Positions 1 through 38,943 of a stretch of DNA of 42,657 nt are shown in pieces. Below the pieces are notes generated by a model. It saw only the letters and a list, made by a program, of their open reading frames with translations. It had not been told where the DNA came from and searched no databases. Each line of letters starts with the position of its first letter. The stretch's first letter is position 1. Source of the DNA: a virus (taxonomy: Duplodnaviria; Heunggongvirae; Uroviricota; Caudoviricetes); the IMG/VR virus record IMGVR_UViG_2541047850_000006, positions 1 through 42,657 of that record; one strand, written 5' to 3'. Made by a program: the position numbers and the translations under genes.

Positions 1-211
1 TCGTGAAAACGATAAAGCGTGACTACATCAGTATCATGCCCAAACCAGACGGGTTAACGGCAGCAAAGAACCTTGCAGAGGCGTTCGAGCATTATAACGA
101 ATGGCATCCGCATAGTGCGCTGGGTTATCGCTCGCCACGGGAATATCTGCGGCAGCGGGCTTGTAATGGGTTAAGTGATAACAGATGTCTGGAAATATAG
201 GGGCAAATCCA
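1..211 (+). mobile_element. insD: IS2 (IS3 family) right-end fragment: 3' end of orfB/InsD transposase plus terminal repeat; the element body lies upstream of the window
   Basis: ORF 3..200 ends ...[29 protein letters not shown] (rve-type DDE transposase C-terminus) and the DNA ends ...TGTCTGGAAATATAGGGGCAAATCCA at ~211; both match my recollection of IS2, not database-verified. Confidence 0.8.
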
Positions 212-954
212 AGCCCCTCTTTCTCCGTAACTTGTTTACGACAAAGCTATGCTTGATAAGCTATAGCCTCACCACTAGGCCTCTCCATAGGGCTGCGTTT
301 GGGAAACGTACAATATTGTACGGTTGCGTTATCGCGGTAGGGTGTACTCCCATGCTATACGGTGTTTGGCAGATCTCTAGGGACATGAGATAACCTAAAT
401 GCGATAAGAAAAAAGCAATAACTTAAAAGCGATAGCTGATCACGATGAATCAATCAGTTACTTATCCACGTTGGTTAAAAAATGCTCCTGACGTACAATA
501 ATTTCCGTTGCCCAAACCGACCCCTACATACATGATGAAGTGACACAGGCTGGTAGCTACTATCTAAAACCATCGTTTATCACAAGGCTTGTTCGAGTTT
601 GTGTCTCCAATAACTACGTGAAAAAGTTATATGGTTTGATTATGCCGATTGGCGTTGTTGTTAGATGTTAAATGATGTATGGAATCATTATGTTCTCATT
701 TTTAGGAGCGTATCCTTTTCACTAATCTGTTAATTCCCCTCGACCTTCCGGTTTTTGCACGAGCTTAAAGCTAAACGGTTTGAGCTGGCTCCTTGAAATG
801 CCAGACAGTGGATGTATCTTAAAATAAGAGATAGGCTTGGATATATATACCAATGCTTGGAACTTTGCTGGGGCAGGAGCTTCGCAAACGTAAAACTCCT
901 CAGGAAAAAATTGCCACTATTCAGCAAACAATGTAGCTTGGCATGACGGCAGTC

Positions 955-2635: not shown

Positions 2636-3889
2636 TTATGATAGAGCCTTAATGCCCAAAACCTTGCTTTGTAACTCCAACTGCTTGGTATACGGTTTTG
2701 CCCGATAATAGGCTTTGATAATTTGTTCTGGCGTTGCACCGCCCGGGTCGAGTCCTTCCTCACCCAAACACGCAACTTTGACATTAAGACCGATACTGGT
2801 CAGTCGCCTAGCTGCGGGCATAGTGTTGCGTATAGCTTGCTTTTCACTATCCCACATCATGATCACATTACGTAACCCACGCGCCTTGAGCGTCAGGAAC
2901 GCGCCTAACTGATCTTCTGCATCCTGAGTGGTGTTGCCAGATAGATGCATCCCGAACGTTCCTATTGGTTCCACGTAATCACGTAATGTTTCTTCATCAA
3001 AAATAGCTCGTTTAACCCCCATAACATCGAACGCCCCCTCACAGACAACTACAGTCTGTTTGCCGACCGCATTATGGCCGTTGTAGAGAAACTTACCTGA
3101 AGCTGGAAGTTGCATAGGAAAGAGGTAGCGGCGTTCTGCTGTACCGGTAATGTCTCGTCCCTGAAATGTCTTCATTACCCCATCCAGATCGTAAATCGGT
3201 ATCAGTATTCGCATATCGAATATCTGCCCTTTAACCTGATCTGTATACGGATCTACATAAGCGTGCTTGCCTTCGACGCAGTATCGTAGGTCAAAATACT
3301 TTGCCATTTCAGGTGATATGTTTCGTTCAACCAGATAGTCTGGAAGACGGCCATCTATAGGAAGCTCGTAATGACGAGGGAGTGCAACTGGCCCCTCTAA
3401 CTCGACTGTGCTTGCAAGCACTAGCTCTTCTTTCTTTGGTGCCCACCCCTGGGAAAGAAGGGCGTTCTGCACATATTCCTCGAACTGTCGTCGTGATTTA
3501 CCGCTGTAGTGCTTGAGGAAGACCAGCTTATTGAACTGAATCTCTTCGGGATGATCACCAGCGAAGCATTTGCCGACGCCACTGGTCAGATTGAAATATA
3601 CCTTCCAGTTGGAGCTGCCGCATACCGGACACTCCTTGATATTCACTTCACGACCGCGAGCACTCACACCTCCACGTCGATAAACGATACCTTCAGTATC
3701 CAACCATTGTTCAAAATCTAATTCGGCAATTAGCTCTTTCAGCTCGCTCACGATAATTCCACTTTTAACAGGCAATATTATGACCAACATAAATGTTGAT
3801 ATAACATAAAGGCTCATGTGTTTTTCTTTTGTGGTTTGGCAAAAGAAAAGTTGTTTCACCAATGAATCAAGCGTGGAGGTGTTCTCCAC
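2636..3889 (-). CDS. DNA primase (zinc-binding domain + TOPRIM), T7 gp4 primase-domain-like; N-terminus probably over-extended (likely ATG near 3817)
   Basis: CPVCGSS...C..GDH zinc-ribbon-like motif; VVVCEGAFDVMG and MMWDSEKQA TOPRIM-like acidic motifs; the track start is GTG inside a hairpin at 3870-3892. Confidence 0.75.
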   Translation of the reverse strand: MENTSTLDSLVKQLFFCQTTKEKHMSLYVISTFMLVIILPVKSGIIVSELKELIAELDFEQWLDTEGIVYRRGGVSARGREVNIKECPVCGSSNWKVYFNLTSGVGKCFAGDHPEEIQFNKLVFLKHYSGKSRRQFEEYVQNALLSQGWAPKKEELVLASTVELEGPVALPRHYELPIDGRLPDYLVERNISPEMAKYFDLRYCVEGKHAYVDPYTDQVKGQIFDMRILIPIYDLDGVMKTFQGRDITGTAERRYLFPMQLPASGKFLYNGHNAVGKQTVVVCEGAFDVMGVKRAIFDEETLRDYVEPIGTFGMHLSGNTTQDAEDQLGAFLTLKARGLRNVIMMWDSEKQAIRNTMPAARRLTSIGLNVKVACLGEEGLDPGGATPEQIIKAYYRAKPYTKQLELQSKVLGIKALS

Positions 3890-3900
3890 GCTTATTTTTT
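3870..3900. terminator. Stem-loop (9-bp stem AGCGTGGAG/CTCCACGCT) between helicase and primase genes; followed by TATTTTTT on the plus strand
   Basis: Inverted repeat read directly; the U-tract is strong only for plus-strand (antisense) transcription and weak for the minus strand, so it may be an attenuator or an antisense terminator. Confidence 0.4.
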
Positions 3901-5239
3901 AGGTAACGTCTAAGATTCGCTCAATGAAGCGCATTTGTTCGAGGTTTTGTTTAACGCGAATGCTGATCCCTCCCTGTTGGTTACGTGAACCGGCAAAGTA
4001 GAGACGAGCCTCTCCTTTCGCTTCTTCTTCTTCGGTTTTGTTGATCGTTATTACCAGGTCAGCAATACGTACTTTTTCGATGTTGTCGGCAGCGTGCATC
4101 ATTGTGGCAACTTCTGACGCGCCACCTTCACGGTTTGTCTGCGATGCCGTGATCCCAGCAACGTTATGCTTGTCATAAAGAGCACGTAAATCGGTGTAGA
4201 TACTACGAATGTTGGCGCGATCATCACGAAGGTCATAACTGGCACGCATCAAATCTGCGTAGTCGACAACAACCATGTCAGGCACCATGCCGTTGGCTTT
4301 CATGCTGTTAAGCATACGGTCCAGATCTGCCGGTGACATACTTCCTGACGGACGCTCAACCACCCACAAACTACCAATCCCCTTCGTGGCTCCCAACTCT
4401 GCCAACTTACGGTGAACCTGATCGCGCCGTTCCACCAGCTTGGACATTTCCGTCTCCGACAATCTTGCATCAAAACGGTCAGATAAAATGGTGGTGTGAA
4501 CCTCCAGCGAGAGATACAGAACATTGTAGCCAGCAAGCGTTGCGTTTATGGAAAACTCACCCATTGCGGTCGATTTACCGGATTTAGCGAACCCCATGAA
4601 GAGCACCATTTCACGCTTCGCCCAGCCTTTTTGGTACAGCAACCTATCGAGCAGAGGGAGTCCAGTTGTAATGCTGTTTGGCACATACTCCTCTGAAGCC
4701 TCATATTCACGCGCTTTCAATCGCTCACTTGCGGAGGTGTAGTAGTCATAGATTCCGGTCGCTTCGTTCGATCCAATCTGCTGAACCTTGGCCATGATTG
4801 CCATCGCCCCCTGAAAGTCGCCCTTCTCTTTCAGTTCAGCAGCCTTAATCAGAGCATCATCAAACGCTACACTTTTTGCGAAGGTTGATACCTGGTCAAC
4901 CATGTACGAGGTATCGGACAATTTTTCTGCAAGAATGCGCTTAAACGCAGCAACAACATCGGCGAATAGTTCCTCACGGATAGTCTTATCGCGTTTCGCA
5001 CGCTTAAGCATATCCAGAATTGCAGATGAAGAGGGCGCGCTCTTGTACATACGGTAATAGCCCGAAACCATATTAACCAATATGGCATTGGCCGCATTGG
5101 CAAATTGGCTAGGCACAACCAGATCTCCCGCACGAGTAAGAAACTCGTGATCACGACAAAAATATGCCGTCAGTCTGTTCTGGAAATCTTCATCAAACTC
5201 TTCGGACAGCCCGCGTCCTGTATGGCAAAGTTCGGTCAT
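3899..5239 (-). CDS. Replicative DNA helicase, DnaB/RecA-fold (T7 gp4 helicase-domain-like)
   Basis: Walker A GFAKSGKST, Walker B MVVVDYADL, QTNREG region; ATG start with AAGGAAA SD. Confidence 0.8.
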   Translation of the reverse strand: MTELCHTGRGLSEEFDEDFQNRLTAYFCRDHEFLTRAGDLVVPSQFANAANAILVNMVSGYYRMYKSAPSSSAILDMLKRAKRDKTIREELFADVVAAFKRILAEKLSDTSYMVDQVSTFAKSVAFDDALIKAAELKEKGDFQGAMAIMAKVQQIGSNEATGIYDYYTSASERLKAREYEASEEYVPNSITTGLPLLDRLLYQKGWAKREMVLFMGFAKSGKSTAMGEFSINATLAGYNVLYLSLEVHTTILSDRFDARLSETEMSKLVERRDQVHRKLAELGATKGIGSLWVVERPSGSMSPADLDRMLNSMKANGMVPDMVVVDYADLMRASYDLRDDRANIRSIYTDLRALYDKHNVAGITASQTNREGGASEVATMMHAADNIEKVRIADLVITINKTEEEEAKGEARLYFAGSRNQQGGISIRVKQNLEQMRFIERILDVT

Positions 5240-5282
5240 GTGCTTTCCTTTGTTTTTTAAACAAATTGTTTTCTAGTATTAG

Positions 5283-6032
5283 TTAATTATATAGGGGATC
5301 AATAAACCACCGTGCTTCTTCCAGTTCTTCTGGAAAGTGGGCGGAAATAAGGCGCTCTGGAACGATTTCCATTAGCCAGATAGCGGAGAAAATTGCGCGT
5401 ATGCGCTTGCTGCGAGGGATGGTGCGCAAACGCTCCAGAATCCACTCAAAATAGCTTTCCTGAATCGGGTTGAACTGCATGTCTCCCATATGCTTAAAGC
5501 TAACCAGAGAGTCATCCAGACGGGTTGTTGCGCGTCTGGCTAATTTCTCTTCAAATATCTCAATCAGTTCTGGCTGCCATAAATGCTGCGGACGCGGCAG
5601 CTTGTCCCACAGACGTCGTGCAGCTGCGGAAAGCACGGTGGAGATAAAGTAGTCGTATGAGCAACAATAGCGGTCAGCAAACTGGCGTGCTTTCCATAAC
5701 GACGTTTTATTGGCAGTCGACAACTCCTGATAAGGCAGGCGTTTTAACCCGGTGGTGAACGGAGCTGTTTCAAAGTGTTCGCGACCGTGCGTCAGCATGA
5801 TATTTGAGTACTGACGTTTGTATGCCTCCGTAAAAAGACAGGTGGCCATGAGAGGATGCATGTCGCAGTAATCAAACCACTTCGTCTCGAAGAGTTCAGC
5901 CTCGTCTTTACAGCGCGACAAACCAATGTTTTCAGCGACCCACTTGTCCATAACAGCGGTATTCCACTCTGTCATGAAGTCGTACTGGTCGTTGTCGATG
6001 GTATCGAAAAAGATTTGGCTCATGTGGCTCAC
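5283..6032 (-). CDS. Hypothetical protein (about 246 aa from ATG at ~6023)
   Basis: Track ORF (GTG start); an in-frame ATG 9 nt downstream has an AGGTGA SD; a palindromic motif overlaps the start region (6036-6055). Confidence 0.5.
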   Translation of the reverse strand: MSHMSQIFFDTIDNDQYDFMTEWNTAVMDKWVAENIGLSRCKDEAELFETKWFDYCDMHPLMATCLFTEAYKRQYSNIMLTHGREHFETAPFTTGLKRLPYQELSTANKTSLWKARQFADRYCCSYDYFISTVLSAAARRLWDKLPRPQHLWQPELIEIFEEKLARRATTRLDDSLVSFKHMGDMQFNPIQESYFEWILERLRTIPRSKRIRAIFSAIWLMEIVPERLISAHFPEELEEARWFIDPLYN

Positions 6033-6137
6033 CTGGTAGGTAGTTACTTACTTATTACAATGAGCGGATGATAGCGACTGGTGGCAGTTTTTGGAAGTGG
6101 AAACGAAAGGGAGTTGTTCTGGTTGTGTCTTTTAAAA

Positions 6138-6196
6138 GACCTGCTTCTGTATATATTTAATAAGTTACTTATTATTTATATATACGGAAGCAGGCA
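6138..6196. repeat. Long near-perfect palindrome A (about 17-bp arms CCTGCTTCTGTATATAT / ATATATACGGAAGCAGG around an AT-rich core AATAAGTTACTTATT); copy 1 of 2
   Basis: Read directly; a second copy in inverted orientation at 35661-35716. Confidence 0.75.
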
Positions 6197-6309
6197 TACA
6201 TAACTTGTCGTCTTAGACGCCCAGAAGCTCTACACTTTGAGCCTGTTAAATTGATTAAAAACTTATGTGTAAAATAGAACGCATTAGTCAGTAGCTAAGA
6301 GATGCAATA

Positions 6310-7077
6310 ATGGACGATTTATCGGTATACGCGAGATCATTGGATAAGGCTAAATACTATGTTTACTGTCTCTATGATACAGAAGACAAGATGAAAAGAC
6401 CGTTTTACATAGGAAAAGGCAAATCGACTCGTTGTCTCGATCACATCAAGTATCCCGATGACTCTCCCAAATCCATGCGGATCAAAGAACTTTTGGCTAA
6501 TAAAAAATTAGGCATAGATATACTTCGTCATGGTATGGATGAAACCACAGCCAAACTTGTTGAGGCGACATGCATCGACCTTATGGGGGTCGGAGAGCTT
6601 ACGAATAAGGTTCGAGGAAGTGGTTCCATGATGGGCAGAATATCACTGGACGCCTACCATCACTTAGTGCTGCAAGAGGAAACTGAAATTGCTCCTGAGC
6701 ACGCCGGTCTTGCCTTCCTGCTAAACAGCACCTACAAGTCAGGAATGTCCGCTCTGGCATTATATGAAGCTACGCGTGGCGTATGGGCAAAGGTTCCAAG
6801 AGACGAGAATCTCAAATATGCCTACGCTACATATGGTGGGCTAATAATGGAAGTTTATCGGATTGAATGCTGGGTCAAAGCCGGTTCTCAGCAGTACTTT
6901 ACAAGGGATATAGCTCTTGGCCCCGACACAAAACGTTATGAATTTGTTGGCAGAATAGCCGATGAGCATATTAGAAAACTGTATGTAGGCAAATTAATCA
7001 AGAAGCCACCAAGCTACGGTAGCCCTTTTGTGAAGGTTGGAGTGGTTAGGACTGAACATAGTGTTAGCGCGGCATAA
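6310..7077 (+). CDS. GIY-YIG nuclease-domain protein (255 aa), stand-alone on the opposite strand
   Basis: N-terminal YYVYCLYD...PFYIGKGK...R..H and downstream Glu/Asn consistent with a GIY-YIG catalytic core; ATG start; followed by a strong terminator. Confidence 0.6.
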   Translation: MDDLSVYARSLDKAKYYVYCLYDTEDKMKRPFYIGKGKSTRCLDHIKYPDDSPKSMRIKELLANKKLGIDILRHGMDETTAKLVEATCIDLMGVGELTNKVRGSGSMMGRISLDAYHHLVLQEETEIAPEHAGLAFLLNSTYKSGMSALALYEATRGVWAKVPRDENLKYAYATYGGLIMEVYRIECWVKAGSQQYFTRDIALGPDTKRYEFVGRIADEHIRKLYVGKLIKKPPSYGSPFVKVGVVRTEHSVSAA

Positions 7078-7093
7078 AGCTGACACTGTAGTT

Positions 7094-7140
7094 ATGCATT
7101 GGCGCAATGTACGCGCCAATGCATGATTTTTAACCTTTTT
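7094..7140 (+). terminator. Rho-independent terminator (12-bp perfect stem ATGCATTGGCGC...GCGCCAATGCAT, then GATTTTTAACCTTTTTT)
   Basis: Inverted repeat plus T-tract read directly; sits between the convergent GIY-YIG and partition genes. Confidence 0.65.
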
Positions 7141-7489
7141 TCATCAACTCTCGTTTGATTTCATCGGTACGCATCGTGACATCGGCAGCTGTGATCGCCT
7201 CGTTCAGTTTCACGATGTCCTCGATTTCCTGCGGTGACTTCTCTGCCAGATGGAAAATGGCTGCGCGAATCACGTCAGAACGGGTGAACTTCTCGAAACG
7301 AGGGATGAACTTCATCATCTCCAGCAGTTCGAAGTATTCGTCTTCCAGTGACATTGTGCGGCTTTTAATTTTCTCTTTGCCACGAGTCGGGCGTCCCTGT
7401 GGTCTGACTGGTTGGCGCAAAGGAGTTGTGTTCTTAGCCGGTGCATCAGGCTCTTTGCGCTTTGCTAGGTCACCCATTTTCATGGACAT
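7130..7489 (-). CDS. ParG-like ribbon-helix-helix centromere-binding protein (partition adaptor)
   Basis: Basic disordered N-terminus followed by an RHH-like segment RTMSLEDEYFELLEMMKF...SDVIRAAIFHLAE; its start overlaps the stop of the upstream ParA gene by 1 nt. Confidence 0.55.
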   Translation of the reverse strand: MSMKMGDLAKRKEPDAPAKNTTPLRQPVRPQGRPTRGKEKIKSRTMSLEDEYFELLEMMKFIPRFEKFTRSDVIRAAIFHLAEKSPQEIEDIVKLNEAITAADVTMRTDEIKRELMKKG

Positions 7490-8157
7490 TATTCTTCTTC
7501 CTCCAGACTCAACAGATAATCTACAAATTCTTCAAACTCGGCTTCCGCCTTTTTGTCGCGCTCGCTACCGGTCATTTCAAAGATAGAACGACCAGACTCT
7601 TCCGCATCATCATAGACGTTGCGGTTATATAGATTGACTGGCGCAGACTCGATGCCAAACGTCTCGACAATCTCTTTAGCCGCCAGAATGCGAGACACTT
7701 GTGATGGCAAAGCCGGGCACTGGTTCATGACCGCGCGGACCTTCACTTTATCGTTTACATTACGAACATTGTCGATAATAGGATCGATGTCACGCAGGGA
7801 TTTCAAATCACGACGCTTAGGACGAAGCGGGATAATGATAACGTCGGCCATCAGCATCGCTTGTCGCTGAATTTCGGAGTCGAAGCCACCAGCATCTACC
7901 ACTACAAACTCAGCTCTACCCTGAAGCGATTTTAGGTGCTTAATGATGTCATCCTGAACGTATGCAAAAGGAATCAGCTCAAGGTCTTCGTTCTGTCGAC
8001 GGTCTTCACACCAGCTCGTTGTCGTGCGCTGAATATCTATATCGGTAATATAAACCTTCTTCTTCTTTTTGACTTTCAGGCAAACGGCAATTTGCTGGGC
8101 AACGGTGGATTTGCCAGGCCCGCCCTTTGTGCCGCCAACCACAAAGATCTTGGTCAT
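7489..8157 (-). CDS. parA: ParA/ParF-type partition ATPase (small type Ib, 222 aa)
   Basis: Deviant Walker A GGTKGGPGKST near the N-terminus; size and absence of an N-terminal HTH fit the ParF class; AGGGAA SD. Confidence 0.8.
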   Translation of the reverse strand: MTKIFVVGGTKGGPGKSTVAQQIAVCLKVKKKKKVYITDIDIQRTTTSWCEDRRQNEDLELIPFAYVQDDIIKHLKSLQGRAEFVVVDAGGFDSEIQRQAMLMADVIIIPLRPKRRDLKSLRDIDPIIDNVRNVNDKVKVRAVMNQCPALPSQVSRILAAKEIVETFGIESAPVNLYNRNVYDDAEESGRSIFEMTGSERDKKAEAEFEEFVDYLLSLEEEE

Positions 8158-8290
8158 TGGAGAGTTCCCTTTGCGTATATAATTATCGTCTGAAACAACT
8201 TGTTTTCTTATATGTGATATAGCCTAAATGCCTACGGCTGCTGTGTAAAGGTTTAATGATAGGTACATAGATTTGGTAAGGACTTAATAA

Positions 8291-8316
8291 CAAAAAACCC
8301 GCCGTAGCGGGTTTAG
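8291..8316 (-). terminator. Rho-independent terminator (AACCCGC-CGTA-GCGGGTT followed by a T-tract on the minus strand)
   Basis: Read directly; immediately downstream of the stop of gene 8320..9096. Confidence 0.7.
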
Positions 8317-8319
8317 GAA

Positions 8320-9096
8320 TTAGTGGTTGGTAAACCTGGCATCAAATGTTGTAACGCCCACTTCAATGTGGCGGTCTTCTTTGGAGATGATGGTGAGAAT
8401 CTGACTAGATGGGTCTATGCTGACAGCCATAGGGTTCCAGTGACGTAACTGAGCCTCTCTGTTCAATAGCAGCGCATCCCACGGTTTGACGCCATTCTGC
8501 CCAATACCACCCTCAACAAGGACATCTATAAATTCTTTATTTAAATTGTCATAGATTTGGACACGCCCGACCAGAAGCATACCGACCGCCCAAATTCTGG
8601 CACCGTAAACCGTCTGATGGTCATCACATACCACATGGTCATGCCAATTGAGAAGGAAATTGTAAACTCTTCTAGCAAGTCCCTTTTGTTCCTTTGAAGG
8701 GGTTACAAATGCCCCTTTGATCTGGACACCAAGGTGAGAGCCTTTTTGTGAGCGAAACTGGAAACGCTTGTAGACGAACCTGGCAATCTGAATGCCGTCA
8801 TCATCTTCTTGTTCATCACCAACTAACTCACGAACACTATGAACTATCTCTGCTTCTGAATACCCCTGCTCGTCAAGATCCATTGCATGTTCTTGAAGCC
8901 AATCTGCATCATGGTCGCCTACAAATGACACTGTCAAACAGTAATCATAATTAGACCCGATCAAAGACCACTCTGTGAGCCGTAAAACAGAAAAATCAGA
9001 GTTAACCATGTAGCCAACTCTGATTTTCTCTCTTGCTTCACATTCAGGGAAATCTGACAGTACTTTTGAATACTCTGCTATGAATGATGGTGACAT
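8320..9096 (-). CDS. Hypothetical protein (258 aa)
   Basis: Track ORF, ATG start abutting the stop of 9097..9495; has its own terminator; no confident domain (a GDHDADW segment is only weakly suggestive). Confidence 0.5.
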   Translation of the reverse strand: MSPSFIAEYSKVLSDFPECEAREKIRVGYMVNSDFSVLRLTEWSLIGSNYDYCLTVSFVGDHDADWLQEHAMDLDEQGYSEAEIVHSVRELVGDEQEDDDGIQIARFVYKRFQFRSQKGSHLGVQIKGAFVTPSKEQKGLARRVYNFLLNWHDHVVCDDHQTVYGARIWAVGMLLVGRVQIYDNLNKEFIDVLVEGGIGQNGVKPWDALLLNREAQLRHWNPMAVSIDPSSQILTIISKEDRHIEVGVTTFDARFTNH

Positions 9097-9495
9097 TTAG
9101 TTAGCAAGCCGCATATCCGTAGATGAATCCAGTTTTGCTATTTTAACATCTACGCGGTATTTATCTTTGATAAATTTAGCTATTTTGCTTTCAATCTCAT
9201 AGAAAGCATCCTGTTCACAACGCACAACATCGGGAAACTGTTTTTCTGGCTTAACAAGAAAACGTAACCGATTGTTGAGCACCATCATTTCTGCAAACAA
9301 TTTGATGGTAAACTTGCCTTCTTCAACGTCACTTTTAAGGTTAACGATGAAACGCTGATCCTTAAGCATACCCGGTTTGTTCATTTCACGAATTTGGAGC
9401 GAGTCATTCCAATGCCGCAACGGAACCGATGCGATCATCTTGGTACAGTCTCTTATCGTCTGAATAGAACGAGATGCGTTAAGCGCAGTATGCAT
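9097..9495 (-). CDS. Hypothetical protein (132 aa)
   Basis: ATG start with strong AAGGTGG SD; 174-bp intergenic region upstream. Confidence 0.5.
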   Translation of the reverse strand: MHTALNASRSIQTIRDCTKMIASVPLRHWNDSLQIREMNKPGMLKDQRFIVNLKSDVEEGKFTIKLFAEMMVLNNRLRFLVKPEKQFPDVVRCEQDAFYEIESKIAKFIKDKYRVDVKIAKLDSSTDMRLAN

Positions 9496-11856: not shown

Positions 11857-14216
11857 TCCACAACCTCCCCAAGCTGCGCATCTGTTAGCTCTTTATGCCA
11901 GAGACGAAAATTCCTCACATGCCCAAATAAATGGCGTAATCCTGCTGTAGTTTGTCCACCAATGCGAATGGTTGCTGTACTCCGGATATATTCCCATTTG
12001 GTTTTAGTTTCGCTGCTTAACTTACCGTTACTGACTACACATGTGGACCGTTCGGACTTTACCCGCATACCAATAAGCATTTTTTTCAGCCCGGCATTTT
12101 CATTTATTCGTCGGTCTGAACCACCTATATCGCAATACGGAAAACCGTCGTACCCACCTGATGAACCAAACCCCATTACGATCCCCGCTCCGGTTTGATG
12201 ACCGCCGGTATCAAAAACACGCGGCGCTACATTTGGCGTTTTATACCAGTTCTTATGTACCTCACAAAAAACCGTAAAAGGAAGATTATAAAGATTATTC
12301 TTAATCGGAACTGTAACCATATCGCTTGCCCGCGTCGCCGCCGTCGTTCCTGATATAATAAAAGATGATACACACGAACCATCCTCAACCTGAGGGGTAG
12401 CCAGATAAATATAGTCACCAGATTCAACGACACCACCTTTTTTTGGTGCGTATTGTATTGCAGAGGTTATGTAAGTTTCTTTACTTGCTTGAATCGTTGC
12501 CTCTGCAAAAATCCAGCCCGTAACTTCATCTTTGTTAACTCGTGCGGTGAGCCTGTCGGCAGCTACACCGGTGATTTCAACCAATAAAGACCGCGTATTA
12601 ACAATGGCATATCCAAGATTAGATGAAGCGCTGCCATTGAAGGCTTCAAACCTGATCTTTAACAGGAGTTCCAAATCCGTTTTAAATCTGCACGATGTCG
12701 TCACGCACTTATTATCGCCTGATACATCGACAGCCCCCGAGGTTGAAACTACTGCCATATTAAGGGTTGTACTTTGCCCAATTAATGATTCATTACAAAC
12801 AAACTTTCCATAAGTAAAACCAAAACCATCAGTTCCAACCTCAGCGACATTCATATTTGCAGATTTACCCCAAGAAGCTGGAGTTGCTGAATTTAACATG
12901 TAGTTGGTTCGCTGACCTTCAATCAATAAACCTTCTTTTTCAAATCGTGGCTCATTAATTTCCGCCGTTTTCAGTTCGCCAGATTTGTTGATATATGTTG
13001 CCGTTGATGCGCGACTGAAATTAACCTGTTTATCACTGGCAACCTGAACCACATTATCACCAATCTTCACTTTTTTATAACCCGGAGAATAGCCCGTAAT
13101 CATATCCAGCGAATCATTAAAGGGTATCCACACATCCGGCAGCGGCTGTAAAACATATCTGTACGGCTCTGCTGTCTGGTTTGCGTATTCTCTGGCAGCA
13201 TCTTCACTTGCTTTTGCTGCCGTCTGGCTTGCTGCCGATGCTTTCGCCGAGTTCGCCGCCGCTGTTTCGCTCACCTTTGCGTTGGCTTCACTGGTTTTTG
13301 CTGCTTTTTGACTGTTAGCTGATGCAGTGGCAGAAGCAGCCGCCGCGCTTGCAGAACTGGCTGCGGCACTCTCGCTTTGGGCCGCTGCATCCTGACTGCT
13401 TTTCGCCGCAGTTTCACTGGCTTTGGCATTCGTTTCGCTGGTCTTCGCTGCCGTCTGGCTGGACTTTGCGTTAGTTTCACTCGTCTTCGCAGCTTTCTGG
13501 CTGTTAGCCGCGGCAGTTGCTGATCCGGCAGCTGAAGTCGCAGAACCAGCTGCGGCACTCTCGCTTTCGGCTGCCGCCGCCTGGCTGTTTTTTGCTGCGG
13601 TAGCGGAGTTGGCGGCAGCACTCTGACTCGATTTTGCAGCTACCTCGCTATTTTTCGCATTAGTTTCGCTGGTCTTTGAAGCTGTCTCACTCGCTTTTGA
13701 GTTAGTTTCTGATTTTTTGGCCGCTGTTGCGCTCGCTGCCGCCTCTTTAGCTTTTTGTGCAGCGGTGTTAATTATGGGAGTATTTTCTTTATACCATTCT
13801 AGGTTCTCATTGTGCTCATTAACGATCTGCGTAAGGGATTTTACGGTTAATTCCGTGCCATCTTCACGCTCAATTGTTATTTTATCCACAGCAGTCAGCC
13901 AACTACGCATCATTTTTGAATCGGCTGACATGCGAGACATAAGCGCAGTAAAACGAGCACTAAATTGGGTCAAATCACCTTCATAGGTCGTAATTATTCT
14001 GCACGGAACATTTGTTTGGGTGCTGCCACCGTAGGCTTCAACAAGAGTTAACGAAGTGTCACTCTCGATTGATTTTATTTCATATAACTTATTATCGGGG
14101 CCAATCAATATCATACCTGGAAGGACGCCGTTCGTCGTCACTCCCCAGGCTGTGCCTGTTCCCACTACAGTTTTATTTCCTTTAGTGAGATTTATTGTAC
14201 CTTCCCTGTACCACAT
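11853..14216 (-). CDS. Side tail fiber protein (lambdoid Stf-like) with Ala/Ser/Thr-rich KSETNAK-type tandem repeats
   Basis: Repeat block ...AAKKSETNSKASETASKTSETNAKNSE...SQKAAKTSETNAKSSQTAAKTSETNAKASETAAKSSQ... matches my recollection of lambdoid Stf repeats; ATG with SD; located after J. Confidence 0.75.
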   Translation of the reverse strand: MWYREGTINLTKGNKTVVGTGTAWGVTTNGVLPGMILIGPDNKLYEIKSIESDTSLTLVEAYGGSTQTNVPCRIITTYEGDLTQFSARFTALMSRMSADSKMMRSWLTAVDKITIEREDGTELTVKSLTQIVNEHNENLEWYKENTPIINTAAQKAKEAAASATAAKKSETNSKASETASKTSETNAKNSEVAAKSSQSAAANSATAAKNSQAAAAESESAAAGSATSAAGSATAAANSQKAAKTSETNAKSSQTAAKTSETNAKASETAAKSSQDAAAQSESAAASSASAAAASATASANSQKAAKTSEANAKVSETAAANSAKASAASQTAAKASEDAAREYANQTAEPYRYVLQPLPDVWIPFNDSLDMITGYSPGYKKVKIGDNVVQVASDKQVNFSRASTATYINKSGELKTAEINEPRFEKEGLLIEGQRTNYMLNSATPASWGKSANMNVAEVGTDGFGFTYGKFVCNESLIGQSTTLNMAVVSTSGAVDVSGDNKCVTTSCRFKTDLELLLKIRFEAFNGSASSNLGYAIVNTRSLLVEITGVAADRLTARVNKDEVTGWIFAEATIQASKETYITSAIQYAPKKGGVVESGDYIYLATPQVEDGSCVSSFIISGTTAATRASDMVTVPIKNNLYNLPFTVFCEVHKNWYKTPNVAPRVFDTGGHQTGAGIVMGFGSSGGYDGFPYCDIGGSDRRINENAGLKKMLIGMRVKSERSTCVVSNGKLSSETKTKWEYIRSTATIRIGGQTTAGLRHLFGHVRNFRLWHKELTDAQLGEVVE

Positions 14217-35554: not shown

Positions 35555-35640
35555 AGATCCCTCTAAAACACACAGAGCGCGTCCATGCGCTCTAAAACAA
35601 CTTGTTTACTGCATCTACTAACCAACTTGTTTTCTGAGGT

Positions 35641-35738
35641 GTTTAATTAGGTCTGGGCATGTCTTATTAAGCCTGCTTCTGTATATATATTTAATAAGTT
35701 ATTTATTATTTATATACAGAAGCAGGTCTTTAAAATAA
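35641..35738. repeat. Long palindrome B (core 35661-35716 CCTGCTTCTGTATATA...TATATACAGAAGCAGG with extended imperfect symmetry GTCTGGG...CCCAGAC); copy 2 of 2, inverted relative to copy A
   Basis: Read directly; lies between the wHTH gene stop and the terS start region. Confidence 0.75.
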
Positions 35739-36027: not shown

Positions 36028-36918
36028 TTATGCCGGTAAAGCAATTTCTAACGGTTTATCCAAAGGTTGTTTGTCGAATGCCAGCAGTGGCAGCGTGTCA
36101 GGCAGTCGACGACCAAAGTCAGGGTTTCGGTACACACCATACAACGGAGACGTAAAGCTCAGGTTGTGAATGTCCTTGAGCAGCTTCACAATGCTGGCCT
36201 CGTCCACCAGACTGTCGGCAATGTCCTGAATCGTCGTGCCACGATTCCGCCCAGCTTTTGCCAGGGAACTGTTCTTGTGGTAGTCCGCCACCAGATCACG
36301 CAGTGCACGGCGACGACGAGACTCGCTCATTGCGAACAACTCTTTGACGATCGCCTCGTTATCACCCGTGTCGGAACGGAAATGGCGCTGGAATACACGC
36401 AGTGCACTTTCATAGCTCTTCGGTCGCTCAGGGCGGATAAACTTAAACCCTGCTTTCATGGCGAAGGGATTGTATTTGCTCATCGAGGACTGGATCTCAA
36501 TGATTGGCCGGTCATGCATCCTGCTAACCAGGTTAATCATTCGATAAGAGACGCCTACGCCACGATACTGAGTATCCACAACTGAGCGACTGATCACCGC
36601 AAAGTTGTTATTCACGTACCGACCCCAGTACTGGTTAGCCACGGTGGTATTAGTGGTTGGTTTCAACTTAGGAAACATGCGGTGGCGAGGTGCCAACAGT
36701 AGTTTCGGGTAAGCCATAACCACGACGCCCACCAGACGATCATCAAGTTCGCAGCGATAGTAAGTTGGCGCGAAAGGTTTGCCGTCTGTTTTGTAGTGAA
36801 GCGACTTAAGAGCGTGCCAGTCCTCTACAGTTCCCTTTGTAACAGTCATTCGCTCCAGAAAGTCCAGATGACGCGGAAACTCTTCAGGGCGGTAGCGTTT
36901 AATGATGATGTCCGTCAT
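36028..36918 (-). CDS. GNAT-fold (acyl-CoA N-acyltransferase-like) protein with ~130-aa C-terminal extension
   Basis: QYRGVGVSYRM fits the GNAT Q/R-x-x-G-x-G/A acetyl-CoA loop, preceded by beta-strand-like YYRCELDDRLVGVVVMAY; its start overlaps the ATPase stop. Confidence 0.5.
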   Translation of the reverse strand: MTDIIIKRYRPEEFPRHLDFLERMTVTKGTVEDWHALKSLHYKTDGKPFAPTYYRCELDDRLVGVVVMAYPKLLLAPRHRMFPKLKPTTNTTVANQYWGRYVNNNFAVISRSVVDTQYRGVGVSYRMINLVSRMHDRPIIEIQSSMSKYNPFAMKAGFKFIRPERPKSYESALRVFQRHFRSDTGDNEAIVKELFAMSESRRRRALRDLVADYHKNSSLAKAGRNRGTTIQDIADSLVDEASIVKLLKDIHNLSFTSPLYGVYRNPDFGRRLPDTLPLLAFDKQPLDKPLEIALPA

Positions 36919-37580
36919 AAATGGACCTCATCATGACTACCATTGTGATATTCCACCTTCACGCGTTCTTTGTAGTGCTTGATGATCTGCATATCCGGGC
37001 GCAGCGCGTTCTTCAGGTCTTCGTGAGTCGTCGCCACCATTACCGTCGCACCAACCTTTCGAGCGGCACGCTGGAGGTTAGATGCCACAACCTGAGCGGT
37101 TACACGGTCTAGAACAGCACCGAACTCGTCAGCAGCCCACACTTTAGCGCCTGACTCAATCAGTTTGGCAATCTTGAGACGATATTTCTGGCCGTCTGAC
37201 ATTTCAGAAGGCTTGCGAACAAACAGATATGCATCGTTCAGACCAGCCATAGATAACAACCCAAGCGCATCGCTGGTCGTTTTGCCCAACTGATCGATGA
37301 CGTTAACCTCATTATCGAAGGTAAAATCATCGATGGAGGCTACAGACAGCCCTTCATCCTTCATCTGTCGTTGCAACTCGCGCAGCACAACGGATTTGCC
37401 GGAACCGGATTGGCCGGTGATGTACACCACATCGCCCTGCTTCACTTCCAGCTCCAGATTGTCGTAAAGCGTCCACTCTTTTTCGTCCAGGCCAAGCCCG
37501 AACGACTCAGCGATTTCCAACGTGCGCGTGGTTTTATTTACGTGTGTCTGAAACGATACGTTGATGTTGTATTTGCTCAT
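36915..37580 (-). CDS. Small stand-alone ABC-type ATPase (221 aa)
   Basis: Walker A GQSGSGKS, ABC signature LSDGQKYRL, Walker B VWAADEF, H-loop-like VMVATTHE; 4-nt overlaps with both neighbours. Confidence 0.7.
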   Translation of the reverse strand: MSKYNINVSFQTHVNKTTRTLEIAESFGLGLDEKEWTLYDNLELEVKQGDVVYITGQSGSGKSVVLRELQRQMKDEGLSVASIDDFTFDNEVNVIDQLGKTTSDALGLLSMAGLNDAYLFVRKPSEMSDGQKYRLKIAKLIESGAKVWAADEFGAVLDRVTAQVVASNLQRAARKVGATVMVATTHEDLKNALRPDMQIIKHYKERVKVEYHNGSHDEVHL

Positions 37581-38278
37581 GCAGCCATCTCCCCGGAAGA
37601 GATCTTCTCCGCATATGCCACAAATGCGTCTACCCCGCTTTCTCCCGTCATTTCTTCCATATGGGCAAGCAAATCACCAACAACAATGGCAGAGCCAGCA
37701 GGGAGAGTTTTAAAGCCCAATACGTCGACAACACGTACTTCTTCCGCTGCAACTTCACGACTGATCTCGGTGTGTTCATCCTTCTGTCGTTTAGTTTCTT
37801 CGCCAAGATCGATAACTAGCGAGTCGGTGTCCATTTCTTCTGTCATACTGCCAACGAGAACATTCAACTCACGCTCTTCAAAGCCGAAAACCTCGATATC
37901 GTCCAGAACAAGCGACTCAAGCTCTTTCTGTAGCTTAATTGCATCGTAATCAATGCTGGCAAGTCGGTTATCTTCAAGGCGCTTCGCACGAACCTCGTCA
38001 TCACTGAGATCATCGCGAACAATAACCGGTACACGCTCAAGTCCAGCAAAAATTGCAGCCTCACGGCGGCCGTGGCCAGTAATAATTACGTCGTTCTTAT
38101 CGACCGTAATTGGCTGGTCAAATCCGCGCTTTTTAATGGCTGCGGCCAGATCTCTGATCTGCTGTTCATCATGCTTTTTGGCATTCATCTCATAGGGAAT
38201 AAGATCTGCCGGGTCGCGATATACGATTTCAAACTTTTTGGTCATTACATACGCTCCTTGTAGTAGTCGACCAGCCAC
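37577..38278 (-). CDS. ParB/Srx-fold domain protein 2 (likely start at ATG near 38245)
   Basis: ParB N-terminal-domain-like ...VIITGHGRREAAIFAGLERVPV...; the ATG overlaps the stop of the upstream ParB-like gene. Confidence 0.65.
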   Translation of the reverse strand: MAGRLLQGAYVMTKKFEIVYRDPADLIPYEMNAKKHDEQQIRDLAAAIKKRGFDQPITVDKNDVIITGHGRREAAIFAGLERVPVIVRDDLSDDEVRAKRLEDNRLASIDYDAIKLQKELESLVLDDIEVFGFEERELNVLVGSMTEEMDTDSLVIDLGEETKRQKDEHTEISREVAAEEVRVVDVLGFKTLPAGSAIVVGDLLAHMEEMTGESGVDAFVAYAEKISSGEMAA

Positions 38279-38943
38279 ACCAGAGCCTCACCAGCGTTTT
38301 CCATTTCATTGCCAGTATTAATTGCCTGGTCTTTGATGATGTTTTTTATGGTTTCTGCAACGCGATCTGACGCATCGAAGGTTACTTTGAAGCGCATGGT
38401 CTGATGTTCCGCACCGACACGTTCGGTTTTCTCTCGTTTGTCGGTATCGACAGGCTCATCACTACCACGAGACAACGCCTCCAGTGCTTCAAGGTCAATT
38501 GCCGCCTCTTTTGCTAAAACCATCGAGATTTCGTCGTCATACGGGGCGATTTCAGACAGTTGATAGTCAAGTTCTGACTGAATTTCTTCAATGAAGCGTT
38601 GCAATGCGATTTGGTCGTCTTCACCGTATCGCTCGTTGTCCACCAGTGACATCTGTTTTGCCACGACATCGCTAATTTTGCCCACAGAAAGCACAGGAAC
38701 CGTTGAAATTCCTTGCTCAATAGCAGCACGCCAGCGATGTTCGCCGCCGAGGATTTCAAAAAATCCATCTTCAAGCTCACGAGCCAAAATTGGCTTAAAA
38801 AAGCCCAATTTTTCGATAGAACCTTTCAGTTTTTCGAAATTCTGCGCACCAACCGAATTGGTGTTCCAGGTATTCGGGCGAAGGTTGGCAACATCAACCT
38901 GCAAAATCGTGATTTTTACGTCCATTTTATTGCTACAATCCAC
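38245..38943 (-). CDS. ParB/Srx-fold domain protein 1 (likely start at ATG near 38925)
   Basis: ParB N-terminal-domain-like ...FEILGGEHRWRAAIEQGISTVPV...; first gene of the operon; palindromic motif immediately upstream. Confidence 0.65.
   Translation of the reverse strand: MDCSNKMDVKITILQVDVANLRPNTWNTNSVGAQNFEKLKGSIEKLGFFKPILARELEDGFFEILGGEHRWRAAIEQGISTVPVLSVGKISDVVAKQMSLVDNERYGEDDQIALQRFIEEIQSELDYQLSEIAPYDDEISMVLAKEAAIDLEALEALSRGSDEPVDTDKREKTERVGAEHQTMRFKVTFDASDRVAETIKNIIKDQAINTGNEMENAGEALVWLVDYYKERM

What the first reader, a model, noticed from the sequence alone, without database searches (positions are those of the whole stretch)
2636..8157. Plasmid-style maintenance genes embedded in a tailed-phage genome (phage-plasmid signature)
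Seen: a ParA/ParF-type Walker ATPase with a downstream RHH adaptor gene (1-nt stop/start overlap) and separate primase and DnaB-like helicase genes lie contiguous with lambda-like tail and head genes. No integrase is present in 42.6 kb. Established: type I partition systems are hallmarks of low-copy plasmids and phage-plasmids. Inference: the element is probably maintained extrachromosomally; the centromere may be among the intergenic repeats near 8160-8290.
Basis: partly seen in the sequence, partly recalled or inferred. Interest (0 to 1): 0.5.

Follow-up and report, generated by a model that had tools for sequence, protein, structure and literature searches.

The report
Known SSU5-type phage-plasmid partition module

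Summary
The window is 99.9% identical and colinear with Escherichia phage PhiR41_1 (107,998 bp, circular). It is about 95-97% identical to many 106-115 kb circular E. coli, Shigella and E. albertii plasmids, and about 81% to Salmonella phage SSU5. The par cassette occurs in 264 of 5,426 complete E. coli genomes, always on plasmids and never on a chromosome. Extrachromosomal maintenance is therefore well supported, and already known.

Corrections:
- The helicase and primase belong to the phage replisome. The plasmid replicon (Rep3-type RepA plus iterons) lies outside the window.
- The complete element does encode a tyrosine recombinase, about 5.5 kb beyond the window.
- There are no iterated repeats upstream of parA. 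That region holds a promoter-like block, nearly invariant across genera, with a 13-bp palindrome that recurs at 18 places in the genome.
- The RHH fold of the partner protein has only sub-threshold support.
- The centromere remains unidentified.

The parts
7489..8157 (-). parA: small (222 aa) ParF-like deviant Walker-A partition ATPase without an N-terminal DNA-binding domain
   Evidence: Pfam MipZ/AAA_31/CbiA/ParA. PDB ParF 4dzz and 5u1g, E 1.2e-10. NCBIfam ParA_partition positions 6-202 of 203, E 1.9e-33, 115.7 bits, below the cutoff of 180. PHROG 164 ParA-like. Motif KGGPGKST.
7130..7489 (-). 119-aa partner gene, the putative centromere-binding adaptor. It has a conserved MGDLAK(R/K) N-terminal tip, a disordered Arg/Pro-rich linker, an RHH-like core (SRTMSxEDE ... 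TRSDVIRAAI) and two further helices. Its ATG overlaps the parA stop codon by 1 nt.
   Evidence: Sequence. Always adjacent to parA in relatives. Orphan family: 25 hits among 5.8 billion proteins and 18 representatives among 1.84 billion; phrog_5111, function unknown. The AF2 monomer (pLDDT 63) is disordered over residues 1-46, followed by helices 48-60, 70-84, 86-98 and 101-118. Sub-threshold RHH_1 hits in two family members over the equivalent stretch and a sub-threshold aCcr1 hit.
8191..8252 (-). 62-bp core upstream of parA: -35 TTTACA (8244-8249), 17-bp spacer, -10 TAGGCT (8221-8226), palindrome TATAT-CAC-ATATA (8209-8221) and palindrome AAACAAGTTGTTT (8193-8205). It is a probable promoter/operator and the best remaining centromere candidate.
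   Evidence: 60 of 62 bases are identical between the window and Klebsiella phages whose parA coding sequence is only 77.5% identical. Homology to the Klebsiella phages stops about 110 nt upstream of the ATG. The hexamers were read from the sequence; the consensus scan did not call them.
8295..8314 (-). Intrinsic terminator of the upstream cargo gene 8320-9096
   Evidence: 8-bp stem followed by a T run.
7094..7124 (.). Perfect 12-bp inverted repeat between the convergent 119-aa gene and the GIY-YIG gene. It is terminator-like and not conserved in relatives.
   Evidence: I22. RNA fold -25.1 and -22.3 kcal/mol. Sequence downstream of the partner gene is not conserved in SSU5, Klebsiella or Cyrano.
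6310..7077 (+). Variable cargo gene: GIY-YIG nuclease-like protein matching the anti-phage defence family PD-T4-3
   Evidence: Pfam LEM-3_GIY-YIG, E 5.6e-7. PADLOC PD-T4-3, E 1.6e-23. Replaced by other genes in Cyrano and SSU5.
5283..6032 (-). Conserved 249-aa gene of unknown function at the head of the helicase-primase operon
   Evidence: phrog_2500, function unknown. No Pfam, NCBIfam or PADLOC hit. Syntenic in all relatives.
3899..5239 (-). DnaB-like replicative helicase (phage replisome)
   Evidence: Pfam DnaB_C, E 3.6e-13. NCBIfam phage_DnaB, E 4.2e-14, below cutoff.
2636..3889 (-). DnaG/Toprim-type primase. The true start is probably downstream of the GTG listed, because relatives are annotated at 371-393 aa.
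   Evidence: Pfam DNAG_N, 26.9 bits against a cutoff of 26; Toprim_2 below threshold. TIGR01391, E 6.2e-9. Annotations.
5259..5271 (.). Copy of the dispersed 13-bp palindrome (AAACAAATTGTTT), 19 nt upstream of the helicase start codon
35595..35632 (.). Two copies of the same palindrome, 25 bp apart, upstream of the small terminase gene
   Evidence: The pair is conserved in pMT1.
6139..6195 (.). AT-rich palindrome of about 55 bp (CCTGCTTCyGTATATA...), one of three copies in the genome
   Evidence: RNA fold -26.2 kcal/mol, z -7.25.
35669..35730 (.). Second copy of the ~55-bp palindrome, upstream of terS
   Evidence: Fold -27.6 kcal/mol, z -7.45. Also present upstream of terS in pMT1.
37577..38943 (-). 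Two overlapping ParB N-terminal-domain genes (37577-38278 and 38245-38943) next to an ABC-type ATPase and terS. They are backbone genes and are not the partner of the small ParA.
   Evidence: Pfam ParB_N, E 3.4e-13 and 1.5e-8. PHROG 723 and 930. Retained in pMT1, which lacks the small ParA.
1..211 (+). Right end of IS2 (C-terminus of InsD plus the terminal inverted repeat), absent at this point in PhiR41_1

Best explanation
The finding covers the partition operon and part of the phage replisome of an SSU5-supergroup phage-plasmid. This is a temperate siphovirus of about 108 kb that persists in Enterobacteriaceae as a low-copy circular plasmid.

Shown:
- The window is near-identical to phage PhiR41_1 and to many E. 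coli plasmids.
- The window encodes a ParF-like ParA.
- An invariably adjacent, translationally coupled small gene follows parA.
- The cassette occurs only on plasmids in complete E. coli genomes.

Inferred mechanism:
- parA and the 119-aa gene form a type Ib-like two-gene partition system.
- The small protein dimerises through an RHH-like core and binds DNA in the invariant 62-bp block just upstream of parA. There it would both autoregulate the TTTACA-17-TAGGCT promoter and mark the plasmid.
- Its disordered basic N-terminal tail, with the conserved MGDLAK(R/K) tip, would stimulate the ATPase of nucleoid-bound ParA dimers. Plasmid copies would then be moved apart by a ParA gradient.
- The operon also carries the genome-wide 13-bp palindrome between its -10 box and its ribosome-binding site. 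This ties it to the same unidentified regulator as about 17 other sites, including those upstream of the helicase and terminase operons.

Other maintenance functions:
- Plasmid-mode replication is provided elsewhere, by a Rep3-type RepA flanked by iterons.
- The DnaB-like helicase and DnaG-like primase in the finding belong with the phage's own Pol III alpha and epsilon, ligase, SSB and UvsW/UvsY/RecA-like genes.
- A tyrosine recombinase with a lox-like palindrome just upstream of its gene lies outside the window. It most likely resolves plasmid multimers rather than integrating the phage.
For: - Identity and colinearity with PhiR41_1: 99.9% over window 212-42657, and the reconstructed genome is 107,997 bp against 107,998 bp for the record.
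- Relatives are circular 106-115 kb non-mobilizable plasmids.
- The par cassette is in 264 of 5,426 complete E. coli genomes at 265 places, all on plasmids.
- ParA resembles ParF and the NCBIfam small ParA model.
- The partner gene is adjacent in E. coli, Salmonella and Klebsiella elements down to 48-50% protein identity.
- There is RHH-like secondary structure and there are sub-threshold RHH hits at the expected position.
- The upstream core is 97% identical where the coding sequence is 77.5% identical.
- The palindrome is dispersed: 18 sites against 0.4 expected, and 4 against 0.28 in the window.
- RepA (Rep3_N, E 3.6e-9), its iterons, the tyrosine recombinase (Phage_integrase, E 1e-9) and the lox-like site are all present in the complete genome.
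- Literature: the SSU5 supergroup is an established phage-plasmid group with lambdoid-like tails and persistent tyrosine recombinases (PMC7969092). Cyrano is present at about 5.5 copies per cell, makes virions, and expresses the partner-gene homologue in lysogens (PMC9928086). SSU5 parA is used as a screening marker (bioRxiv 10.1101/2025.09.12.675607).
Against: - No centromere was identified. There are no iterated or tandem repeats next to the operon, which is unlike TP228 parH, pB171 parC or the pSM19035 heptads.
- In the most diverged cassettes only the promoter hexamers and the genome-wide palindrome stay conserved upstream of parA, so no par-specific site stands out.
- The RHH fold is not established. 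The window protein has no Pfam hit, profile searches of the PDB found nothing, hhalign against ParG gave probability 0.1, and Foldseek on the low-confidence monomer model found nothing.
- Partition activity of this cassette has not been tested experimentally in any paper I could find.
- The replicon state of the window's own source cannot be read from the window, because its left end runs into IS2.
Confidence: 0.88

Rival explanations
1. The 119-aa protein is both a centromere binder and a global regulator. It would bind the dispersed 13-bp palindromes (18 sites), so the centromere is distributed over the genome and partition is coupled to phage gene control, as with KorB/OB in RK2, omega in pSM19035 or the scattered Sop sites of N15.
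For: - The palindrome is the only non-promoter element conserved upstream of parA in all cassettes, including the most diverged.
- The putative DNA-reading strand KSRTMS is invariant across the family.
- The palindrome is strongly enriched and sits between the -10 box and the ribosome-binding site of many operons.
Against: - pMT1 lacks the small ParA and the 119-aa gene (tblastn found none) yet keeps six intact palindromes, including the terS pair, against 0.16 expected.
- A 6-1-6 palindrome also fits an HTH dimer, and the backbone encodes several HTH regulators that pMT1 retains.
Confidence: 0.1
2. The real partner of the small ParA is one or both of the ParB N-terminal-domain proteins at 37577-38943. 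The 119-aa gene would then be unrelated cargo, for example a toxin as annotated in phage Cyrano ('RelE/ParE putative toxin').
For: Two ParB_N proteins are encoded in the window. Cyrano's annotation calls the 119-aa homologue RelE/ParE.
Against: - The ParB_N pair lies about 30 kb away next to the terminase genes, and pMT1 keeps it although pMT1 has no small ParA and uses a P1/P7-type parAB.
- The 119-aa gene is always fused or abutted to parA.
- It has no RelE/ParE hit in Pfam, NCBIfam or PADLOC-independent searches, and it is predicted to be a disordered tail followed by helices.
Confidence: 0.04
3. The element in this particular sample is an integrated prophage or a degenerate plasmid remnant, rather than a free and functional phage-plasmid.
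For: - The window's left end is an IS2 copy absent from PhiR41_1, an IS3-family remnant lies at about 940-1170, and the DNA ligase gene of relatives is missing.
- The family encodes a tyrosine recombinase.
- Degenerate derivatives on 141-231 kb plasmids exist.
Against: - 42.4 kb of the window is colinear and 99.9% identical with a phage genome deposited as complete and circular, with MG1655 given as host.
- None of the 265 copies of the cassette is chromosomal.
Confidence: 0.05

Closest known systems
Escherichia phage PhiR41_1 (PV340561.1); phage Cyrano/pLF82 (OV696614); Salmonella phage SSU5 (NC_018843). These belong to the SSU5 supergroup of phage-plasmids, specifically the pSLy3 and SSU5_pHCM2 groups of Pfeifer et al. 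2021.
   Same: The sequence is 99.9% identical to PhiR41_1, about 96% to Cyrano and about 81% to SSU5. The gene order is the same: terminase, head, tail, lambda-like tail tip, lysis, cargo, parA and 119-aa gene, cargo, helicase, primase.
   Different: IS2 sits at the left end of the window. The cargo genes flanking parAB differ from those of Cyrano and SSU5: a PD-T4-3-like GIY-YIG gene, and two unknown genes in place of the KacT toxin-antitoxin pair.
ParF-ParG-parH of Salmonella plasmid TP228 (type Ib partition)
   Same: A small deviant Walker-A ATPase whose best solved relative is ParF. A small downstream partner with a long flexible N-terminal tail and a C-terminal helical core that may be RHH.
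   Different: There is no detectable sequence relation between the partner and ParG (hhalign probability 0.1). The partner is longer, with two extra C-terminal helices. There is no array of short repeats upstream.
RK2 IncC-KorB with 12 dispersed OB palindromes; pSM19035 delta-omega; the N15 SopAB system with scattered centromere sites
   Same: A partition operon sits in a genome that carries a dispersed short palindrome at many promoters, including the par promoter itself.
   Different: The protein that binds the palindrome is unknown here. pMT1 keeps the palindromes without this par system. This is an analogy from my own knowledge of those systems, not a tested relationship.
P1 (ParA-ParB-parS, Cre-loxP, dispersed C1 operators)
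   Same: A tailed phage kept as a low-copy circular plasmid, with a partition operon, a tyrosine recombinase with a nearby palindromic site, and a dispersed operator-like motif.
   Different: P1 has a type Ia ParA with an HTH domain and a large ParB. The genes and virion type here are unrelated to those of P1.

Membership tests
SSU5-supergroup phage-plasmids | Genome-wide sequence and gene-order similarity to SSU5, pHCM2, pSLy3 and similar elements | tested here: met
   99.9% to PhiR41_1, about 96% to Cyrano, 81% to SSU5 and 79% to Klebsiella members, with the same synteny.
SSU5-supergroup phage-plasmids | Siphovirus structural module with lambdoid-like tail genes | tested here: met
   Phage_min_tail, Phage_tail_L, the NlpC/JAB K-like protein, J-like tip protein domains and TerL. 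The literature description is in PMC7969092.
SSU5-supergroup phage-plasmids | Plasmid replication initiator (IncFIB-like RepA) and a circular extrachromosomal state | tested here: met
   Not in the window. In the near-identical complete genome there is a Rep3_N RepA at 104369-105463 with at least five ACCGCTGACAGCATAC iterons. Relatives are circular plasmids. The state of the window's own source is not testable.
Type Ib (ParF-like) plasmid partition systems | Small ParA (about 200-230 aa) with a deviant Walker A motif and no N-terminal HTH domain | tested here: met
   222 aa with KGGPGKST at residues 11-18. Full-length match to the 203-position NCBIfam ParA_partition model and to ParF. The score of 115.7 is below the equivalog cutoff of 180, so it is a relative rather than a curated member.
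Type Ib (ParF-like) plasmid partition systems | Small centromere-binding protein encoded immediately downstream in the same operon | tested here: met
   A 119-aa gene with a 1-nt overlap, always adjacent in relatives. DNA binding itself was not tested.
Type Ib (ParF-like) plasmid partition systems | The centromere-binding protein has a ribbon-helix-helix fold | tested here: inconclusive
   Sub-threshold RHH_1 hits in two homologues (E 0.0053 and 0.11, below the gathering score) and an aCcr1 hit (E 2.3e-4, 21 bits against a cutoff of 60), both at the expected position. The helix pattern fits. There are no PDB or Foldseek hits. A dimer model could not be run.
Type Ib (ParF-like) plasmid partition systems | Centromere made of iterated short repeats next to the operon | tested here: not met
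   No tandem or direct repeats in 5900-9300 or 8150-8330. There are only single short palindromes in a conserved 62-bp block.
Type Ib (ParF-like) plasmid partition systems | Stabilises a plasmid in vivo | not testable with these tools
   I found no experimental test of this cassette in the papers searched.
ParG family (TP228) | Sequence homology to ParG | tested here: not met
   hhalign of the family profile against ParG gave probability 0.1. The ParG sequence used was verified as 1p94. There is no Pfam ParG hit.
RelE/ParE toxins (annotation of the Cyrano homologue) | Match to RelE/ParE family models | tested here: not met
   No such hit in Pfam at E up to 10 across 13 family members, nor in NCBIfam.
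Integrative temperate prophage | Integrase with attachment sites, and chromosomal copies | tested here: not met
   A tyrosine recombinase exists outside the window, but 0 of 265 cassette copies in complete E. coli genomes are chromosomal.

The most novel reading that the evidence does not exclude
The orphan 119-aa partner of ParA is an RHH-type protein that recognises the 13-bp palindrome AAACAAnTTGTTT. That motif is found at 18 sites, mostly between the -10 box and the ribosome-binding site of operons, including parAB, helicase-primase and the terminase/structural operon. The phage-plasmid would then use a dispersed centromere. Its partition adaptor would double as a global regulator linking plasmid segregation to the lysis-lysogeny programme, a KorB/omega-like logic not described for SSU5-type elements.
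Probability: 0.1. Interest if true: 0.55.

Novelty: already known. Interest (0 to 1): 0.12.

Why it matters
SSU5-like phage-plasmids are common: this par cassette is in about 5% of complete E. coli genomes. They carry resistance and defence cargo, so recognising them correctly matters for annotation. The phage-plasmid nature of this element is, however, established and adds nothing new. The only open points are mechanistic. The partner of ParA is an uncharacterised orphan family. No centromere has been defined. A dispersed operator-like palindrome of unknown binder controls many operons, including par. Resolving these would explain how this large family couples plasmid maintenance to phage development.

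Tried and rejected
- **Iterated centromere repeats.** I looked upstream and downstream of parAB with the repeat finder and Tandem Repeats Finder and found none.
- **The perfect 12-bp inverted repeat downstream of the partner gene (7094-7124) as centromere.** Rejected. It is not conserved in SSU5, Klebsiella or Cyrano cassettes and looks like a terminator for the convergent GIY-YIG gene.
- **The 13-bp palindrome and the ~55-bp palindrome as par-specific sites.** Weakened, because pMT1 lacks the cassette and keeps both.
- **Fold evidence for RHH.** The AF2 monomer had low confidence. Foldseek against the PDB gave no meaningful hits. Two PDB profile searches gave none. hhalign against ParG gave none.
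- **A non-SSU5 context for the cassette, to separate par-specific from backbone motifs.** The 86-88% identical copies on 141-231 kb plasmids are still SSU5-derived, degenerate or cointegrate elements.
- **The 'MinD' gene of Cyrano and PhiR41_1 as a second ParA.** Rejected. It is an Mrp/NUBPL-type protein (PF10609, E 2.4e-102).
- **The exact source of the window's IS2 junction.** No record in the complete E. coli genomes holds it.
- **Gilcrease and Casjens 2018, and a 2026 preprint.** Neither could be opened.

Full report
**What is there.** Six ORFs fill the finding.
- 2636-3889(-) is a DnaG/Toprim-type primase. Pfam DNAG_N scores 26.9 bits against a cutoff of 26, and TIGR01391 gives E 6.2e-9.
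- 3899-5239(-) is a DnaB-like helicase (DnaB_C, E 3.6e-13).
- 5283-6032(-) is a conserved gene of unknown function (phrog_2500).
- 6310-7077(+) is a GIY-YIG protein that matches the anti-phage defence family PD-T4-3 (E 1.6e-23).
- 7130-7489(-) is a 119-aa protein with no Pfam hit.
- 7489-8157(-) is a 222-aa ParA.

The ParA has the deviant Walker A motif KGGPGKST. Its best solved relatives are ParF of TP228, 4dzz and 5u1g, at E 1.2e-10. It aligns end to end with the 203-position NCBIfam 'ParA family partition ATPase' model (E 1.9e-33), though below the curated cutoff. The ATG of the 119-aa gene shares its A with the parA stop codon, and a GGAGG lies 10 nt upstream. Lysis genes and lambda-like tail-tip genes M, L, K and J follow directly. 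No homologue of the family's integrase or RepA is in the window (tblastn, best E 1.4).

**What element this is.** Window 212-42657 is 99.9% identical and colinear with Escherichia phage PhiR41_1, a 107,998-bp circular record whose host is given as MG1655. Splicing the window into that record gives 107,997 bp with matching junctions. The window is about 96% identical to phage Cyrano (pLF82) and about 81% to Salmonella phage SSU5. It is 93-97% identical to dozens of circular 106-115 kb plasmids of E. coli, Shigella and E. albertii, typed as non-mobilizable.

This is the SSU5 supergroup of phage-plasmids. Pfeifer et al. 2021 described it as having lambdoid-like tails, persistent tyrosine recombinases and variable plasmid genes (PMC7969092). 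Cyrano was measured at about 5.5 plasmid copies per cell. It produces siphovirus particles, and the homologue of the 119-aa gene is expressed in lysogens (PMC9928086). SSU5 parA is already used as a screening marker for such elements.

The par cassette alone (7130-8270) is present in 264 of 5,426 complete E. coli genomes, at 265 places. All of them are on plasmids and none is on a chromosome.

1. The complete element does encode a tyrosine recombinase, at PhiR41_1 86640-87743 (Phage_integrase, E 1e-9). This is about 5.5 kb beyond the window's left end, next to an HTH repressor-like gene. Cyrano and pMT1 have the same pair. A lox-like palindrome, GTAATGATTCCATAC-ATAGTAG-GTATGGAATCATTAC, lies about 100 bp upstream of that gene. 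Single half-sites occur at window 675-690 and at genome position 92553. Because no chromosomal copies exist, multimer resolution is the likeliest role; this is an inference.
2. The helicase and primase are not plasmid-style genes. They sit with the phage's own Pol III alpha and epsilon, ligase, gp32-like SSB, UvsW, UvsY and RecA-like genes. The plasmid replicon is a Rep3-type RepA (E 3.6e-9) flanked by at least five ACCGCTGACAGCATAC iterons, outside the window.
3. The 'intergenic repeats near 8160-8290' do not exist. Tandem Repeats Finder and the repeat finder return nothing except the terminator hairpin of the upstream gene at 8295-8314.

**The partner protein.**
- Its family is tiny. There are 25 hits among 5.8 billion clustered proteins and 18 representatives among 1.84 billion. 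All with known context come from SSU5-like elements, and always directly after parA.
- The invariant features are an MGDLAK(R/K) N-terminal tip, a variable linker, an RPQGRPTRGK stretch, SRTMSxEDE, and TRSDVIRAAI.
- The AF2 monomer model (pLDDT 63) is disordered over residues 1-46, followed by helices 48-60, 70-84, 86-98 and 101-118. This fits a strand-helix-helix core with a flexible tail, as in ParG.
- The RHH label has only sub-threshold support. RHH_1 hits two homologues over the equivalent residues (E 0.0053 at 17.1 bits against a cutoff of 20.5, and E 0.11). An aCcr1 hit reaches 21 bits against a cutoff of 60.
- There is no relation to ParG (hhalign probability 0.1). PDB profile searches and Foldseek found nothing. 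A dimer model could not be run.
- Cyrano's 'RelE/ParE toxin' annotation has no support.

**The upstream region and the centromere question.** Megablast homology to Klebsiella phage-plasmids covers exactly parA, the partner gene and about 110 nt upstream. Within that stretch a 62-bp core (8191-8252) is identical at 60 of 62 positions, while the parA coding sequence is only 77.5% identical.

The core reads as follows:
- -35 TTTACA, a 17-bp spacer, and -10 TAGGCT;
- a palindrome TATAT-CAC-ATATA;
- a palindrome AAACAAGTTGTTT, 35 nt before the ATG.

The hexamers were read from the sequence; the strict consensus scan did not call them.

The last palindrome is not specific to par. With at most one mismatch it occurs 18 times in the 108-kb genome against 0.4 in shuffles. 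In the window it occurs 4 times against 0.28 expected, at 5259, 8193, 35595 and 35620. Most copies lie between an ATAAT-like box and the ribosome-binding site of an operon, 11-40 nt from the start codon. These operons include helicase-primase and, as a pair of sites, the terminase operon.

In the most diverged cassettes, whose partner proteins are 50-64% identical, only the hexamers and this palindrome survive upstream of parA. Yet pMT1 of Yersinia pestis has the SSU5 backbone, uses a P1/P7-type parAB and has no homologue of the small ParA or the 119-aa protein. It keeps six copies against 0.16 expected, including the terS pair. The palindrome is therefore most simply a backbone operator for an unidentified regulator. 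The centromere of the small par system remains undefined, and the invariant core is the best candidate.

A palindrome of about 55 bp, AT-rich, is present in three copies, two of them in the window at 6139-6195 and 35669-35730. It is likewise a backbone feature that pMT1 retains.

**Alternative partner.** The window also encodes two ParB N-terminal-domain proteins (37577-38943) next to an ABC-type ATPase and terS. pMT1 keeps them without the small ParA, so they are not its dedicated partner.

**Verdict.** The residual interest lies in the orphan adaptor, the missing centromere and the dispersed palindrome.

Noticed in passing
window 5259-5271, 8193-8205, 35595-35607, 35620-35632 (and 14 more sites in the reconstructed 108-kb genome): The 13-bp palindrome AAACAAnTTGTTT is dispersed: 18 sites against 0.4 expected. 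It mostly lies between a -10-like box and the ribosome-binding site of operons. It is retained in pMT1. It looks like the operator of an unidentified global regulator of SSU5-type phage-plasmids.
   Followed up: partly
window 6139-6195 and 35669-35730; PhiR41_1 13435-13487: There are three copies of an AT-rich near-perfect palindrome of about 55 bp (CCTGCTTCyGTATATA...). Predicted hairpins are -26 to -28 kcal/mol (z about -7). One copy sits upstream of terS, also in pMT1. Its function is unknown; it could be a terminator, a protein-binding site or an origin.
   Followed up: partly
L010 6507-6541 (PhiR41_1 86507-86541); window 675-690; PhiR41_1 92553-92568: A lox-like site (15-bp inverted arms, 7-bp spacer) lies directly upstream of the element's tyrosine recombinase gene. 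Single half-site copies lie about 6 kb to either side, one of them inside the window. This suggests a multimer-resolution system.
   Followed up: partly
window 6310-7077 (+): The GIY-YIG gene wedged between the par operon and the replication genes matches the anti-phage defence family PD-T4-3 (E 1.6e-23). Other relatives carry different cargo at this position (DUF2971, a TPR protein, or a hypothetical gene), so it is a cargo hotspot.
   Followed up: partly
window 8320-9495 (-): Two genes of unknown function (phrog_3307 and phrog_2594) occupy the slot between lysis and parA. Cyrano and other relatives carry a KacT/DUF1778 toxin-antitoxin pair there, so this is a second cargo hotspot flanking parAB.
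   Followed up: no
window 1-211 and about 940-1170: The window begins inside the right end of IS2, which is absent at this point in PhiR41_1. It also contains an IS3-family (ISEc48/IS2-like) remnant. The DNA ligase gene that relatives carry next to gene 1240-1722 is missing here and in PhiR41_1.
   Followed up: partly
window 36915-38943 (-): Two ParB N-terminal-domain genes plus an ABC-type ATPase and an ATPase/acetyltransferase-like gene lie just upstream of terS. They are conserved across the supergroup, including pMT1. Their role is unknown and is possibly linked to packaging rather than partition.
   Followed up: partly
L017 and L018 (E. coli plasmids pLR-46_1, 231 kb, and pB379_2, 152 kb): Copies of the parAB-helicase region that are 87-88% identical sit on much larger plasmids. 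In these, the phage structural genes are truncated or interrupted by IS elements and metabolic genes. They are examples of phage-plasmids decaying into plain plasmids or cointegrates.
   Followed up: no
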